Shown here: piece after piece, positions 45,531 through 58,347 of the stretch
Layout of the letters: each line of letters begins with the position of its first letter
How positions within the stretch are numbered: the stretch's first letter is position 1
DNA from: a virus
Taxonomy: Duplodnaviria; Caudoviricetes
DNA length: 64,000 bases
Direction: 5' to 3' (one strand)
Virus record (IMG/VR): IMGVR_UViG_3300037312_000330
Location: 32,001 to 96,000 of that record
Position numbers and translations under genes: made by a program
The notes under the pieces: model-generated
What the model saw: only the letters and a program-made list of their open reading frames with translations
Databases searched by the model: none
Told to the model about the DNA's origin: nothing

Positions 45531-46669
45531 TCATCACCAACGGCTCCGGCCTTAGCAAGAGTGCCAATGTCAAAGCATGGAAAGATTGGGCGTCCGATCT
45601 TCCCACCAAGGTTGTTAGCGGCGGACTAGAAGATGTGGCCCCATTTGAGGGGTTCACGCACGCTTGGATTGCAGACGCCAACTACTTGCCCTTCGCTTCC
45701 GCATTTAGATCAGAGATGCGGAAGCAGATCCCCGTAACTGCAGAATACGCAGTGTTCTCAGTGACAAAGCCACTGGCTGCTCGACATTTCTACGACGAGA
45801 AGTGGACCACGGACCAGGACAAGCACGACAAATTCGGCGGCATCCGCTACTTGAACACAAAGGGACTTGCATCTGTATACCAGACAGACCAGACGTTCAT
45901 GGGGCGTGAGATCAGCTTTGTGAGCTATCAGGCTTCGCGATTGGGCTTTCCTTATTGTGTGTTCCAGTTGGCTTCTAACGAGCCCAAGATCATCGTCGAT
46001 GAGAACTTCGTAACTGTCCAGCACGTATATCACGGTGCCCATAAGATGGCATTCCCGGAGTTCAATATCCTGGACAGCCACAAGGAACTCGCATCTAGGT
46101 CTGACACCGACATCTTCGTTGTGTTCGACGCCGACTTCCAGTTGGACACTGAGCTCCTGAACGACGAGTTCAAACCTTGGGAGCTTGATTCGGTGCACGT
46201 TTGGTATGCACGCAATCCTGTGAACGGCCTGGAATATGGACACGGCGGTCCCAAGGCGTTCAATCGCAACGCTTTCACCAAGCTGGATGATAGAACTGTT
46301 GACGTCACCACAAATGCGAGTAGCTCCAGACTAACTGTCCACAGACAGTGCGTTGGTGTGCACGCCTTTAACTGGAGTCCCATGTCCACTTGGAGAACAG
46401 CGTTCCGGGAGGCTGCGAAGCTGTCTATGGGGATAAACACGATCGTCGATGCCGATCAATACAAGGAAGCCTTCTTCCGCCTCGATACATGGTGCAAGGT
46501 GGCGAAACCAGACGTTGACTACGGAGACCTATGCACCGATGGAGCGACCTGTGGTCGCAAGTGGGTTGAACGTGTAAATAATAGGGCAGACGTCCTAAAG
46601 ATCAACGACTTCGCTTGGCTGGAGGACGAGTTCCAAAAACGACACGGACCAGAATCAGAAAGAGGGTAA
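45500..46669 (+). CDS. Paralogous GT-A-like protein with extra N-terminal domain
   Basis: VFDADF (DxD); NPVNGLEYGHGGPK; TWRTAFREAAKL. Confidence 0.65.
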   Translation: MADTTRSEVLIITNGSGLSKSANVKAWKDWASDLPTKVVSGGLEDVAPFEGFTHAWIADANYLPFASAFRSEMRKQIPVTAEYAVFSVTKPLAARHFYDEKWTTDQDKHDKFGGIRYLNTKGLASVYQTDQTFMGREISFVSYQASRLGFPYCVFQLASNEPKIIVDENFVTVQHVYHGAHKMAFPEFNILDSHKELASRSDTDIFVVFDADFQLDTELLNDEFKPWELDSVHVWYARNPVNGLEYGHGGPKAFNRNAFTKLDDRTVDVTTNASSSRLTVHRQCVGVHAFNWSPMSTWRTAFREAAKLSMGINTIVDADQYKEAFFRLDTWCKVAKPDVDYGDLCTDGATCGRKWVERVNNRADVLKINDFAWLEDEFQKRHGPESERG

Positions 46670-51957: not shown

Positions 51958-52249
51958 GGAACTGGACGACGCACTGAACTCTCCGATCGTCAAACAGCAT
52001 CCGTTCAGCCACACAGTTAGTAGCGACATCACGTTTTGCTACGATCTGTCAGCAGCACCGAAGAAACAGAAGATGATGCTTTTGACGGTCTATGGGGTTG
52101 CAGTAGAAGGCTTTCTCACGGGCAATCCAGAACGAGACAAGGACATCATGGCGTGGTATCCACTGCCTGACCGTGACAAAGAACTAGAAGAACAACTCAA
52201 GAAAGAAGGCAAGCTGCCGTGGACAAAACTAGCTATGACCTCGCGCTAG
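51932..52249 (+). CDS. Hypothetical protein
   Basis: Phage-type AWYPLP motif; start uncertain. Confidence 0.55.
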   Translation: MCRKSPQGEELDDALNSPIVKQHPFSHTVSSDITFCYDLSAAPKKQKMMLLTVYGVAVEGFLTGNPERDKDIMAWYPLPDRDKELEEQLKKEGKLPWTKLAMTSR

Positions 52250-52842
52250 ACATGGACGAGACAATGTGCTCATTCGTGAGCGCAGTTATCGAAAAGATGC
52301 GTCCGCACTTTCCAGACAAGCAATTGAAGTTGCCTGCGTATGGAAAATACACTCGTTGGTTCAAGGACTACTTCCCTGGACAGGACAGGGAAGTGCTTGC
52401 GAAACATGTCTTCAACGATGATTTCTATCTTGGATTGCGGCCAATTCTCAACGGATTTGACGGTCATACCATCGAGAAGCTGAGTCGCGCATGTTGGGAA
52501 AGATTTGATCGCATCAAGGTACTTACCTTCAGAGACGGCATGATGCAGAATCCAAAGGAAGTCACCCAGGAGTGGTTGAAACGAAACGGATTTGTGGACA
52601 GCGAACGCGTAGACGTCCACGTGCTAAAGGGGTCAGAGTCCAAGCTGTCATATGTCAAACGCAGCACAGTGTTTGTAGATGACAGTCTCACGGTAGCTGA
52701 CGAAGTAACGGCAAGCAAGGAACATCACATGATCCTTGTTAGTCACCCATGGAACGACGGTTACGCTCGTAAAGCAAATTGCACGATTACTCCAGTGCGT
52801 CGCATGATTGAACGGATCGGTGCAGCACGCGACATGTTGTAA
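52219..52842 (+). CDS. HAD-superfamily nucleotidase (NT5C-like)
   Basis: LALDMDETM; VFVDDS; HPWN. Confidence 0.75.
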   Translation: MDKTSYDLALDMDETMCSFVSAVIEKMRPHFPDKQLKLPAYGKYTRWFKDYFPGQDREVLAKHVFNDDFYLGLRPILNGFDGHTIEKLSRACWERFDRIKVLTFRDGMMQNPKEVTQEWLKRNGFVDSERVDVHVLKGSESKLSYVKRSTVFVDDSLTVADEVTASKEHHMILVSHPWNDGYARKANCTITPVRRMIERIGAARDML

Positions 52843-52882: not shown

Positions 52883-53659
52883 ATGGGAAAGCTGTTTGAA
52901 CTTCTGGCCGCAGAAAAGACGCTGTCTGCTGCTGCGGATAAATTGATCACCGAAACGAAGGCCAAGTTCCAGAAGGCCGACACCTACTTCAAGGGTCACA
53001 TCAAGACTCTGAAGATGCTGGAAAGCAAGCCGGAGAATGAGGCCATTGAGAACGCGGCCCGCGACGAGAAGACTATTAGCACGAACGTGGTCGATACGCT
53101 CCAGTACACACTGGATCATTGGGCTAAAGCGGAAGACTGCATCTTCCAGAAGAACTGCACCAACCAGACCGCTACTGCTGACCTTGAGTACCGTGGCACC
53201 TGCATCAGGACCGGCGTTCCAGTCGATGAACTTATGGGTCTTGAGAACCGCCTGAAGGATCTGCGCGGTATGATTCAAGAAATGCCTACCCTGGACGCAT
53301 CCAAAGACTGGGAGCCGGATAGCACTCGCGGTGCCGGATACTGGAAAGCGAAGAACCAGGAAGTCACAACCAAGACCGAGAAGCAGATGACCCCGGTCGT
53401 GCTGTACGCAGCCACCGACAAACATCCGGCGCAAGTCAAGGAAGTATCGAAGGATGTAGTGATCGGATCGTTCACGCAACTGTTCTTCTCAGGTGCTGGC
53501 ACAACCGTTGGCAAGTCAGAAGCTATCAAGGCTATCGACGACATGATCGTCGAATGCCGCAAGGCACGAAATCGCGCGAACACGGTCGAGACCGTGAACG
53601 CAAACATCGGGTCCACAATCGTGAGCCTGATCATGCAAGAGATTGTTCGTGTAGCCTAA
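52883..53659 (+). CDS. Conserved phage protein, DUF7873-like (family recalled from memory)
   Basis: KLFELLAAEK; GVPVDELMGLE; MPTLD; ATDKHPAQV; FSGA; KARNRAN; strong codon bias. Confidence 0.7.
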   Translation: MGKLFELLAAEKTLSAAADKLITETKAKFQKADTYFKGHIKTLKMLESKPENEAIENAARDEKTISTNVVDTLQYTLDHWAKAEDCIFQKNCTNQTATADLEYRGTCIRTGVPVDELMGLENRLKDLRGMIQEMPTLDASKDWEPDSTRGAGYWKAKNQEVTTKTEKQMTPVVLYAATDKHPAQVKEVSKDVVIGSFTQLFFSGAGTTVGKSEAIKAIDDMIVECRKARNRANTVETVNANIGSTIVSLIMQEIVRVA

Positions 53660-53669
53660 ATTGCTACAC

Positions 53670-53866
53670 GATGTGAAGGTTTGGCAACCGTTGTCGTTGT
53701 AATCTAGGGGCGATTGATGGTTCGAATCCATCCCCTCGCGCTGAGCGCATTCATTCAGAGTGCATTGAGCGCGAGGGTGGCAGAACTTGGATATTGCGCC
53801 AGCCGCGAAGCTGGGCCCCGACAGAGTTAACGTCATCATCATCGTTACGCCAAACATCATTCACAT
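53670..53866 (+). ncRNA. Circularly permuted tRNA-like RNA 1 (class II-like; YrlA-like topology)
   Basis: T-arm 53716-53732 precedes D-arm 53780+; acceptor CCCTCGC/GCGAGGG closed by a hairpin; 5' and 3' ends pair. Confidence 0.75.
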
Positions 53867-53876
53867 GAGGTTCGCA

Positions 53877-54065
53877 AGTCTGTAGTCCTTGGCGATGATC
53901 CGGCCGTCATACATAGTTGGCCGGAACTATACAACTCGAGACGCTGGTTCGATTCCAGCCCCGCGATCCAAAGCGCATTCCAAAGAGTGTTCTTTGGTCG
54001 CGGGTAGCTTAGCGGTAGAGCGTGAGTCTATACATCATCTTCATCCAAACCACGCCAGTGTAGAC
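53877..54065 (+). ncRNA. Circularly permuted tRNA-like RNA 2 (encoded CCA; YrlA-like topology)
   Basis: T-arm 53943-53959, CCCGCGA-T-CCA, linker, TCGCGGG, D-arm; anticodon stem TGAGT/ACTCG. Confidence 0.75.
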
Positions 54066-54224
54066 ACGCAGCTTGTGATGTGACTTGACAGTCCGGAGTT
54101 CGGTGCCGATATTTGGGTATAAATTTCTGCACCGATCTCTCTCTTAATTGCATTTCAGACAGTGCCATTAAGAGAGATCTATTACGGTCGTTAGTTTGAT
54201 AGCCCAACGCCAACAGGAAATAAT

Positions 54225-54518
54225 ATGAAAGTAGATCCGCTGTTCGATCGTGCCTTGGTTCGCGAAATCGAACCCTCCACAGTTTCCGCTGGTGGAATCA
54301 TGCTCCTCGACACCGCGAACAGCGGATGCTCGCAGGGGGAAGTCGTTGCGGTTGGCCCGGGCCGACGCACAAAGGATGGTAGCTACGTTGGGATGGCTGT
54401 CCAAGTTGGCGACATCGTCCTGTACAAACCAACGGCCGGTGACATCGTCACGTTCAACGGCGAAGAGCTTCTGATGATGAGCGAAGGTGAAATGCTGGCT
54501 CGCCTTTGTAAGGAATAA
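54225..54518 (+). CDS. groES: Co-chaperonin GroES
   Basis: PLFDRALV; SAGGIML; GEVVAVGPG; VQVGDIVLY. Confidence 0.95.
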   Translation: MKVDPLFDRALVREIEPSTVSAGGIMLLDTANSGCSQGEVVAVGPGRRTKDGSYVGMAVQVGDIVLYKPTAGDIVTFNGEELLMMSEGEMLARLCKE

Positions 54519-56479: not shown

Positions 56480-56570
56480 GGAGAGTTGGCAGAGTTGGTT
56501 ATTGCAACGGATTGCTAATCCGTCATCGGTGAGAACCGATGCGCTGGTTCGAATCCAGCACTCTCCGCCA
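56480..56570 (+). tRNA. tRNA-Ser(GCT)
   Basis: Class II cloverleaf, CCA. Confidence 0.93.
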
Positions 56571-58243: not shown

Positions 58244-58347
58244 GGACCATTAGCGCAGTTGGTTAGCGCACGAACATGAAACGAGAGTACAGACCCTGCA
58301 AGCATCCTTTCAAGGGGTCACGGGTTCGAGTCCCGTATGGTCCGCCA
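58244..58347 (+). ncRNA. tRNA-Asp-like body lacking a normal anticodon arm (104 nt)
   Basis: Perfect acceptor, D and T arms with GCCA end; anticodon arm replaced by unrelated sequence. Confidence 0.7.

What the first reader, a model, noticed from the sequence alone, without database searches (positions are those of the whole stretch)
53670..53866. Permuted RNA 1: class II (Ser-like) tRNA fold opened at the variable arm
Seen: T-arm GATGG-TTCGAAT-CCATC is at 53716-53732. The acceptor CCCTCGC-G (53733-53740) pairs with GCGAGGG (53771-53777). The D-region GGCAGAACTTGGATATTGC is close to the Ser(GCT) tRNA at 56480. The anticodon-like hairpin CCAGC-CGCGAA-GCTGG has only a 6-nt loop. A variable-arm helix GGGGC (53707)/GCCCC (53815) continues into a long stem closed by ATGTGAA-G-GTTTGGC / GCCAAAC..TTCACAT. 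Inference: a non-decoding Ser-type mimic (G73, long arm) that SerRS or RNase P might recognise after processing.
Basis: partly seen in the sequence, partly recalled or inferred. Interest (0 to 1): 0.7.

Follow-up and report, generated by a model that had tools for sequence, protein, structure and literature searches.

The report
Closed tRNA-shaped RNA beside DUF7873 gene
This jumbo phage encodes a roughly 200-base RNA that folds like a serine- or leucine-type tRNA with its amino-acid end sealed and its free ends moved to the long extra arm. It is one of two such RNAs that follow an uncharacterised gene (DUF7873) in phages of very different bacteria, a pairing I could not find described in print.

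Summary
Window 53671-53866 (+) folds as described: an outer stem, an inner stem (Y), a T arm, a sealed acceptor hairpin, a D arm and a small hairpin (X) with a 6-nt loop.

It is not chance. Such elements follow the DUF7873 gene (52883-53659) in 30 of 32 related viral loci, in five closer metagenome contigs, one cyanobacterial genome and seven cultured phages. All helices show compensatory changes, and the tertiary 15-48 pair is kept.

When un-permuted in silico, ARAGORN reads every tested copy that has the extra hairpin as a class II cloverleaf, with the Y stem as the variable arm. The "anticodon" is not conserved.

The most widely shared part I found is the outer helix with a UAUYGCC-like 3' strand. 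In several relatives it carries only a short hairpin instead of the tRNA domain.

The architecture matches YrlA-type Y RNAs, but the genome has no Ro60/TROVE gene and Rfam does not place it in YrlA.

Best reading: a non-decoding tRNA mimic that works with DUF7873, probably as an RNP.

A serious rival is processing into a two-piece, CCA-ended RNA. NCCA follows the acceptor strand in 8 of 27 copies of this RNA and 21 of 37 copies of its sibling. This window's copy has GCUG and a sealed helix.

This scan had already reported the sibling RNA (53927-54034) in the same genome.

The parts
52883..53659 (+). DUF7873 gene (258 aa), the conserved upstream partner of the RNA pair
   Evidence: Pfam PF25283, E = 2e-66. 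More than 6,249 homologues, mostly viral. AlphaFold model pLDDT 90.8 with no informative match in PDB, AFDB or BFVD.
53671..53688 (+). Outer helix P1, 5' strand: AUGUGAA, G, GUUUGGC, AAC
   Evidence: Pairs with 53844-53866 in the MFE. Relatives covary, e.g. UUCGG/CCGAA, UAGGCA/UGCCUA, GAGGC/GCCUC, GGAGU/ACUCC.
53689..53706 (+). 5' strand of an irregular duplex rich in GUY triplets (GUUGUCGUUGU)
   Evidence: Partly paired in the MFE. GUY/AUC triplet runs recur in the flanks of both RNAs in many loci.
53707..53711 (+). Y stem, 5' strand (GGGGC), in the variable-arm position
   Evidence: Pairs with 53815-53819. Relatives have CGGGAC/GUCUCG, CGGAGU/ACUCCG, GAACUC/GAGUUC and ACACAAC/GUUGUGU.
53712..53715 (+). 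Junction GAUU. U53715 is the position-48 partner of A15.
   Evidence: The 15-48 pair is A-U in 19 and G-C in 1 of 21 distinct E1 copies. In the sibling RNA it is G-C in 17 and A-U in 13 of 32.
53716..53732 (+). T arm GAUGG-UUCGAAU-CCAUC
   Evidence: Four of five pairs show double changes in 14 homologues.
53733..53777 (+). Closed acceptor hairpin: 7-bp acceptor (53733-39 with 53771-77), G73 at 53740, three extra pairs, and a GCAUUC/GAGUGC cap hairpin (53747-63)
   Evidence: All seven acceptor pairs covary. Cap length ranges from 5 to 153 nt in relatives.
53778..53798 (+). U8, G9, D arm (GCAG, 10-nt loop with GG, UUGC) and G26
   Evidence: D-stem pairs covary. U8 and A14 are kept in 20 of 21 copies.
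53799..53814 (+). X hairpin CCAGC-CGCGAA-GCUGG, in the anticodon-arm position, with a 6-nt loop
   Evidence: The stem covaries. Loops are 3 to 9 nt in relatives, and no anticodon is conserved.
53815..53819 (+). Y stem, 3' strand (GCCCC)
53820..53843 (+). 3' strand of the irregular duplex, containing GUC(AUC)3 followed by GUU
53844..53866 (+). Outer helix P1, 3' strand: GUU, AC bulge, GCCAAAC, AUCA, UUCACAU. This is the local form of the family-wide UAUYGCC-like motif.
53869..54075 (+). Sibling RNA (E2): class I tRNA-like domain opened at the anticodon arm, with the acceptor followed by U-CCA and the same kind of cap hairpin

Best explanation
Window 53671-53866 encodes a stable, non-decoding tRNA mimic, here called E1. 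It is a complete class II tRNA body: T arm, D arm, 7-bp acceptor and anticodon-position hairpin, with the elbow contacts preserved. The acceptor end is sealed by a hairpin, and the variable arm is prolonged into a long stem that carries the RNA's 5' and 3' ends.

The base of that stem is a sequence-conserved bulged helix. E1 and a class I sibling (E2) lie just downstream of the DUF7873 gene on the same strand, with no sigma-70-like promoter found between them.

I propose (inferred, not shown) that DUF7873 binds the conserved basal helix. The tRNA-shaped head would then engage a host or phage factor that recognises the tRNA elbow and acceptor. This is the way YrlA-type Y RNAs couple Ro60 to other factors.

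A plausible purpose, given that the module often sits among phage tRNA genes, is to occupy or redirect tRNA-binding enzymes during infection, for example tRNA-targeting host nucleases or processing enzymes.

In this phage the acceptor is closed, so E1 would act as an uncharged mimic.
For: Shown:
- The fold is the MFE and is better than shuffles.
- The T, acceptor and D helices hold 99% standard pairs, with 14 of 15 pairs changed on both sides in 14 homologues. The T and acceptor stems were preselected by my scan; the D stem was not.
- RNAalifold on nine copies predicts the T, acceptor, D and X helices, with 24 of 30 pairs compensated.
- The Y stem, X stem and outer helix change in a compensatory way.
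- U8, A14 and the 15-48 tertiary pair are kept, and 15-48 covaries.
- Un-permuted copies that have the X hairpin are read by ARAGORN as class II cloverleaves with unrelated anticodons.
- The position is fixed. Elements follow DUF7873 in 30 of 32 viral loci, in closer relatives and a Calothrix genome, and in cultured Klebsiella, Rhizobium, Vibrio, Arthrobacter, Pseudanabaena and Gordonia phages. In those records the stretch is largely unannotated or miscalled.
- In relatives that lack the tRNA head, the same basal helix with the UAUYGCC-like strand is kept and carries a short hairpin. This makes that helix the most widely shared RNA feature I found.
- The genes flanking DUF7873 differ among the eight distant loci sampled, so no other partner gene is conserved beyond the close relatives.

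Inferred:
- Binding by DUF7873.
- The nature of the factor engaged by the tRNA head.
Against: - No binding or expression data exist.
- DUF7873 has no recognisable RNA-binding fold.
- The frequent NCCA after the acceptor strand in relatives suggests that, in many lineages at least, the acceptor is opened. That fits a processed, perhaps charged RNA better than a sealed mimic.
- Adjacency could reflect co-transcription without physical interaction.
- T and acceptor pairing statistics are inflated by how I selected the homologues.
Confidence: 0.55

Rival explanations
1. E1 is a circularly permuted tRNA-like gene. The acceptor loop is cut by RNase P and 3' trimming, with CCA addition where it is not encoded. 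This gives a two-piece RNA held together by the acceptor, Y and outer helices, as in two-piece tmRNA. The free CCA end is then aminoacylated by SerRS here, or by LeuRS in most relatives. These are two of the few synthetases that ignore the anticodon. The charged RNA is then used by the ribosome or by an aminoacyl-tRNA-dependent enzyme.
For: - NCCA directly follows the 7-bp acceptor strand in 8 of 27 E1 copies and 21 of 37 E2 copies, against 1 in 64 expected. This includes 7-nt loops ACCACAU and UCCACGU in Gordonia phage GodonK, where the CCA cannot be helical.
- Position 73 of E1 is always a purine: A in 16 and G in 5 of 21 copies.
- D arms are Leu- or Ser-like.
- Contigs L034 and L039 carry permuted tmRNA genes with 7-8-nt intervening loops near the module.
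- M. smegmatis YrlA is cut by RNase P and receives CCA (PMC4201824).
- Permuted tmRNA transcripts are cut by tRNA-processing enzymes (PMC11915505).
- The E2 cap resembles the intervening segment of beta-proteobacterial two-piece tmRNA.
Against: - This window's E1 has GCUG rather than NCCA, and positions 73-75 are paired, giving a sealed 10-bp helix. All 13 genuine tRNAs of this phage encode CCA.
- Many relatives have 5-7-nt loops without CCA.
- In L014 the ACCA is fully paired.
- Acceptor sequences carry no conserved identity set.
- No tag reading frame or tmRNA call was found.
Confidence: 0.25
2. E1 and E2 are cis-acting parts of the DUF7873/tRNA-island transcript. They would be tRNA-like punctuation that directs RNase P or RNase Z-type cuts, or a 3' structure that protects the DUF7873 mRNA. 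They would have no function as free RNAs.
For: - E1 starts 12 nt after the stop codon, and no sigma-70-like promoter or terminator lies between gene and RNA.
- The module often sits inside phage tRNA arrays.
Against: - RNase P needs only the T-arm/acceptor stack. Here the D arm, U8-A14 and the 15-48 pair are also kept.
- A sequence-conserved basal helix persists even where the tRNA head is lost.
- Two different RNAs are kept side by side across phyla.
- FBKp24's annotators predicted a promoter between the gene and E1.
Confidence: 0.12
3. It is a decaying by-product of rearrangement in a tRNA array: the 3' half of one tRNA next to the 5' half of another, with no function.
For: - Adjacent tRNAs in this window give weak Rfam YrlA hits of 23-24 bits by the same geometry.
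Against: - The two halves form a perfect acceptor helix that covaries across loci whose DUF7873 proteins are only 27-54% identical.
- Position, order and flanking helices are conserved.
Confidence: 0.02

Closest known systems
YrlA / bacterial and phage Y RNAs bound by Ro60 (Rsr); Rfam RF02553; Chen et al. 2014, PMC4201824
   Same: - A protein-binding stem formed by the 5' and 3' ends.
- A tRNA-like head with T arm, closed acceptor hairpin and D arm, and preserved tertiary pairs.
- Encoded next to the presumed protein partner.
- Often present as two RNAs, one of which may lack the tRNA head (as with YrlB).
- In one species the acceptor is cut by RNase P and receives CCA.
   Different: - No Ro60/TROVE gene in the 249-kb genome.
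- The GNCGAA(N)G Ro-binding motif is absent by my reading of the sequence (not searched with a tool).
- Rfam YrlA does not hit E1 at E <= 10 and gives E2 only 29 bits against a cut-off of 69.
- The neighbouring gene is DUF7873.
- E1's head is class II, with an extra anticodon-position hairpin, and is opened at the variable arm rather than the anticodon arm.
Two-piece (circularly permuted) tmRNA; Rfam RF01850 and RF04321
   Same: - Gene order: T arm and acceptor 3' strand, then an intervening segment, then acceptor 5' strand.
- The pieces are held by long helices.
- A similar CAUUC...GAGUG hairpin occurs in the intervening segment (seen for E2, and in the E1 cap of this phage).
   Different: - No G3-U70.
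- No CCA in this copy.
- A true D arm is present.
- No tag reading frame or pseudoknots.
- ARAGORN finds no tmRNA here.
Circularly permuted tRNA genes of Cyanidioschyzon merolae and other algae and archaea (review PMC3978253, seen but not read in full)
   Same: The 3' half of a tRNA is encoded upstream of the 5' half, and flanking sequences pair.
   Different: From my own knowledge, those genes yield ordinary decoding tRNAs through a circular intermediate made by the splicing endonuclease at a bulge-helix-bulge motif. Here the anticodon is not conserved, the break is in the variable arm, and bacteria lack that endonuclease.
Class II tRNAs (tRNA-Ser, tRNA-Leu)
   Same: - D-arm sequence, five-helix layout and a purine at position 73.
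- ARAGORN accepts the un-permuted form.
   Different: - No free acceptor end.
- 6-nt 'anticodon' loop.
- The variable arm is replaced by a stem of roughly 40 pairs and loops that carries the ends.

Membership tests
YrlA / Y RNA | Encoded beside, and bound by, a Ro60/Rsr (TROVE) protein | tested here: not met
   PF05731 search of the whole 248,884-bp genome gave 0 matches, while the control genomes rang. Binding itself cannot be tested with these tools.
YrlA / Y RNA | Matches the Rfam RF02553 covariance model at its gathering score (69 bits) | tested here: not met
   E1 gave no hit at E <= 10. E2 scored 29.3 bits, and tandem true tRNAs score 23-24 bits.
YrlA / Y RNA | tRNA-like domain (T arm, closed acceptor, D arm, tertiary pairs) on a stem formed by the RNA's ends | tested here: met
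Two-piece tmRNA | Acceptor with G3-U70 and ACCA, a tag reading frame, and a reduced D loop | tested here: not met
   Positions 3 and 70 are G-C, the tail is GCUG, and the D arm is full. ARAGORN -m finds no tmRNA in the genome.
Decoding tRNA, class II | 7-nt anticodon loop with a conserved anticodon, and a free 5' end with a 3' CCA | tested here: not met
   The loop is 6 nt. 'Anticodons' differ or are absent among relatives. The acceptor is closed.
Decoding tRNA, class II | Cloverleaf with a long variable arm and the elbow nucleotides (U8, A14, G18G19, 15-48, T-loop) | tested here: met
Permuted tRNA genes (algal/archaeal type) | A bulge-helix-bulge junction processed through a circular intermediate into a normal decoding tRNA | not testable with these tools
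   The half order is met. No conserved anticodon argues against a decoding product. Processing was not observed.

The most novel reading that the evidence does not exclude
DUF7873 with its two tRNA-shaped RNAs is an undescribed ribonucleoprotein system that works without Ro60. It is spread through tRNA islands of phages infecting Proteobacteria, Actinobacteria and Cyanobacteria. In many lineages the RNAs would be opened into two-piece, CCA-ended molecules. The class II member could then be charged by LeuRS or SerRS without any anticodon, either supplying an aminoacyl donor or jamming tRNA-directed host defences.
Probability: 0.3. Interest if true: 0.85.

Novelty: new variant of a known kind. 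Interest (0 to 1): 0.7.

Why it matters
Phage tRNA islands are usually read as codon-supply or anti-defence tRNA sets. This finding shows that many of them also carry a conserved protein and two tRNA mimics, which genome annotation misses or miscalls. One example is the "tRNA-Sup-TTA" in Klebsiella phage FBKp24.

If DUF7873 binds these RNAs, it would be a second, independent case of a protein-plus-tRNA-mimic particle besides Ro60 and Y RNA. It would give a function to a family of more than 6,000 DUF7873 proteins.

The mix of sealed and CCA-bearing copies offers a natural series for asking when a tRNA mimic needs a free acceptor end.

Several carriers are cultured phages, so the question can be tested directly.

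Tried and rejected
- **Rfam, gathering and E-value modes.** Nothing for E1 except a 16.5-bit tRNA-Sec noise hit.
- **TROVE search of the genome.** None found.
- **DUF7873 function.** PHROGs, PADLOC and NCBIfam gave no family, and a PDB sequence search gave none. Foldseek against PDB and BFVD gave no match at E <= 0.001. VIA-align's best was Z 9.4 at rmsd 7 to an uncharacterised Corynebacterium protein, plus generic helical hairpins including the FemA/FemX arms at Z 7-8, which is within the noise band. AFDB clusters and the ESM Atlas returned only uncharacterised proteins or DUF7873 itself.
- **Conserved neighbour genes.** The genes flanking DUF7873 differ among the eight distant loci sampled. 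There was one RlaP-type nucleotidyltransferase in L027 and one weak vWA hit in L030, neither recurrent.
- **Genome-contig scan.** Only one bacterial locus was found, because only one peptide pattern was usable.
- **RNA evidence.** No RNA holder was listed for the window or for the phiRSL1 locus.
- **Literature.** 'DUF7873' gave 0 papers, and searches on permuted tRNA with phage, Y RNA with phage, and phiRSL1 with tRNA gave nothing on this module.
- **Ribozyme in the 153-nt acceptor insert of L014.** No Rfam family matched.
- **The loose GCATT...AGTG motif.** It is not enriched genome-wide (17 found against about 12.6 expected). Only the three clustered copies at 53747, 53975 and 54150 are notable.
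- **MAFFT alignments of whole elements.** They put the Y and outer strands out of register. Those helices were therefore compared from per-sequence constrained folds instead.
- **Covariance model.** Not built.
- **Complex prediction.** Not used, because it cannot take RNA.

Full report
**What is there**

The window is part of a 248,884-bp IMG/VR jumbo-phage record (window = bases 32001-96000), a distant relative of Ralstonia phage phiRSL1. A 258-aa gene ends at 53659 and matches Pfam DUF7873 at E = 2e-66.

Twelve bases later the element begins. I call it E1.

- outer helix: AUGUGAA (53671-77) with UUCACAU (53860-66), and GUUUGGC (53679-85) with GCCAAAC (53849-55)
- an irregular middle duplex rich in GUY and AUC triplets
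- stem Y: GGGGC (53707) with GCCCC (53815)
- T arm, 53716-32
- 7-bp acceptor, 53733-39 with 53771-77
- D arm, 53780-97
- hairpin X, 53799-53814, with a 6-nt loop

Unconstrained folding returns this structure (-84.1 kcal/mol, z = -3.7). The acceptor is not open. G73, C and U pair with the three bases 5' of the acceptor 5' strand. A GCAUUC/GAGUGC hairpin caps the helix.

**It is not chance**

The search for related loci with the DUF7873 protein gave 32 viral loci, with proteins 29-54% identical. I scanned them for a 5-bp T stem with a T-loop motif, followed directly by a 7-base strand that pairs perfectly with a strand 3-160 nt downstream.

- 47 hits fall in the 700 nt after the gene, in 30 of 32 loci.
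- The rate elsewhere is 0.05 per kb. Shuffled sequence gives none.
- In this phage's whole genome the scan finds only E1, its neighbour E2, and three isolated matches with no D arm after the stem, which I take as chance.

Five closer metagenome contigs (62-76% protein identity) and a Calothrix genome also have the pair. So do cultured phages of Klebsiella, Arthrobacter, Pseudanabaena and Gordonia. The Rhizobium, Vibrio and Gordonia Ronaldo loci show one scan hit each after the gene. In those records the stretch is largely unannotated. In FBKp24 it is partly called a poor "tRNA-Sup-TTA".

**Comparative support for the fold**

- On 14 copies, the T, acceptor and D helices are 99% paired, with 14 of 15 pairs changed on both sides. 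The T and acceptor stems were preselected by my scan, so their pairing rate is by construction. The D stem was not preselected and still covaries.
- RNAalifold on nine copies independently predicts T, acceptor, D and X, with 24 of 30 pairs compensated.
- Per-sequence constrained folds show Y as GGGGC/GCCCC, CGGGAC/GUCUCG, CGGAGU/ACUCCG, GAACUC/GAGUUC and ACACAAC/GUUGUGU. X has covarying stems and loops of 3-9 nt.
- The outer helix covaries as well: GUGAA/UUCAC, AGAAU/AUUCU, GGAAU/AUUCC; UUUGGC/GCCAAA, UUCGG/CCGAA, UAGGCA/UGCCUA.
- Elbow nucleotides are kept. U8 and A14 are present in 20 of 21 copies. The tertiary 15-48 pair is A-U in 19 and G-C in 1. In E2 it switches cleanly between G-C (17) and A-U (13).

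These are the contacts that hold a tRNA in its L shape.

**Class II, but not specifically Ser**

I closed Y with a tetraloop and opened the acceptor in silico, for classification only. ARAGORN then draws all nine tested copies that have the X hairpin as class II cloverleaves, with Y as the variable arm and X as the anticodon arm. The "anticodons" are cg, tct, aat, aaa and ct, so none is conserved.

In this phage the D arm is nearest the phage's tRNA-Ser(GCT), and position 73 is G. In most relatives the D arm is the tRNA-Leu type and position 73 is A: 16 A and 5 G overall.

In L012/13 and L035/38/39 the same slot holds a class I fold with no X hairpin.

**The most widely shared part is the stem**

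In L009, L016, L017, L018, L020, L024 and L026, the space between DUF7873 and E2 is too short for a tRNA head. It still holds the outer helix, with a 3' strand of the form UAUYGCC followed by a few bases and AAC. The helix carries only a short hairpin.

The same motif closes E1 in Klebsiella phage FBKp24 and in Calothrix. A sequence-conserved, bulged helix shared across such distant loci is what a protein-binding site looks like. The only protein that is always next to it is DUF7873.

The genes flanking DUF7873 differ among the eight distant loci sampled.

**What it resembles**

The layout matches YrlA-type Y RNAs. These have a protein-binding stem made by the ends, a tRNA-like head with a closed acceptor, a gene next to the partner protein, and often a second RNA (PMC4201824).

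Membership fails on the tested criteria:

- no TROVE gene in the genome
- no Rfam YrlA hit for E1, and 29 bits against a 69-bit cut-off for E2; tandem true tRNAs score almost as much

By my reading of the sequence, which I did not check with a tool, the Ro-binding motif GNCGAA(N)G is also absent. It is not a tmRNA.

I could not find DUF7873 or this pairing in the searchable literature. DUF7873 gives a confident model (pLDDT 90.8) with long helices and a long beta-hairpin. The tip of that hairpin carries the invariant DKHPAQVK motif. No library returned an informative match.

**The open question: sealed or opened?**

NCCA directly follows the acceptor 3' strand far more often than the 1 in 64 expected by chance:

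- E2: 18 of 32 distinct copies, plus three of five cultured-phage copies.
- E1: 4 of 21 distinct copies, plus four of six cultured-phage copies.

In Gordonia phage GodonK the loops are just ACCACAU and UCCACGU. L034 and L039 carry permuted tmRNA genes with 7-8-nt intervening loops near the module. Permuted tmRNA transcripts are cut by tRNA-processing enzymes (PMC11915505). M. smegmatis YrlA is cut by RNase P and receives CCA.

Processing into a two-piece, CCA-ended RNA is therefore likely in part of the family. From my own knowledge, the Leu- and Ser-type bodies are those whose synthetases ignore the anticodon.

This window's E1 argues the other way. It has GCUG, positions 73-75 are paired, and all 13 real tRNAs of the phage encode CCA. 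Its closest CCA-bearing relative (L042) has GCCA in the same place. The local copy looks like a secondarily sealed form.

**Verdict**

- The structural reading (class II tRNA fold opened at the variable arm, non-decoding) is supported.
- The Ser-specific and SerRS ideas are not general, and they are unlikely for this sealed copy.

The best explanation is a Y-RNA-like tRNA mimic that works with DUF7873. The physical RNP and its target are inferred, not shown. No RNA data could be found (see Tried and rejected).

This scan had already reported the sibling RNA and the gene-RNA pairing in this genome (finding e1-5321944). I re-derived both independently here.

Noticed in passing
window 53869-54075 (+): Sibling RNA E2. 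It has a class I tRNA-like domain opened at the anticodon arm, and its acceptor strand is followed by U-CCA. It gives weak Rfam hits to YrlA (29 bits) and to the permuted region of beta-proteobacterial tmRNA (39.8 bits, E = 1e-10). The tmRNA hit is driven partly by the cap hairpin.
   Followed up: partly
window 54131-54188 (+), with promoter-like site 54085-54113: A third GCAUU...AGUGC hairpin sits at the tip of a long perfect stem in the leader of the cpn10 (GroES) gene (54225-54518). The same CAUUC/GAGUG cap occurs on E2 of Klebsiella phage FBKp24 (L047, about 2600-2620), on E1 and E2 of L042, and in the consensus intervening segment of Rfam beta_tmRNA. It may be a shared processing or binding signal.
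   Followed up: partly
L014:7066-7218, L015, L011:7026-7172, L022:6935-7095: Structured inserts of 147-161 nt sit inside the acceptor cap and start with NCCA. In L011, L014 and L015 the ends are CUGCUGUAUG and AGUAUGGYAG; the L022 insert was not inspected beyond its first 12 bases. No Rfam family matched the L014 insert.
   Followed up: partly
L034:9505-9839 and L039:9184-9510: Phage contigs that carry the DUF7873 module also carry permuted (two-piece) tmRNA genes, with only 7-8 nt between the acceptor strands and a G3-U70 pair in L039 (ARAGORN tmRNA*; Rfam tmRNA_permuted 62.6 bits in L039).
   Followed up: partly
L047:2518-2597 (Klebsiella phage vB_KpM_FBKp24, record 46041-46120): The annotated 'tRNA-Sup-TTA' is a poor cloverleaf. 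It is built from a hairpin upstream of E2 together with E2's T arm, acceptor 3' strand and ACCA. It is probably a miscall of the permuted element.
   Followed up: partly
window 58244-58344 (+): A 101-nt tRNA-type gene is found by Rfam only (45 bits), not by ARAGORN. It has a long insert in the anticodon region.
   Followed up: no
window 52219-52842 (+) and relatives L041, L042, L045: In the close relatives, an unknown protein of about 229 aa and a 200-211-aa protein precede DUF7873. A DUF3850 protein lies between them in L041 and L045 but not in L042. In the window, the 207-aa protein at this position is a weak HAD/NT5C-type phosphatase-like match. This operon is not conserved in distant carriers.
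   Followed up: partly
flanks of E1 and E2, e.g. window 53691-53701, 53832-53846, 54020-54035; L017:6950-6975: Runs of GUY and AUC triplets with three-base periodicity recur in the stems of both RNAs in many loci. Their role is unexplained: they might be weakly paired duplex or a protein-binding repeat.
   Followed up: no
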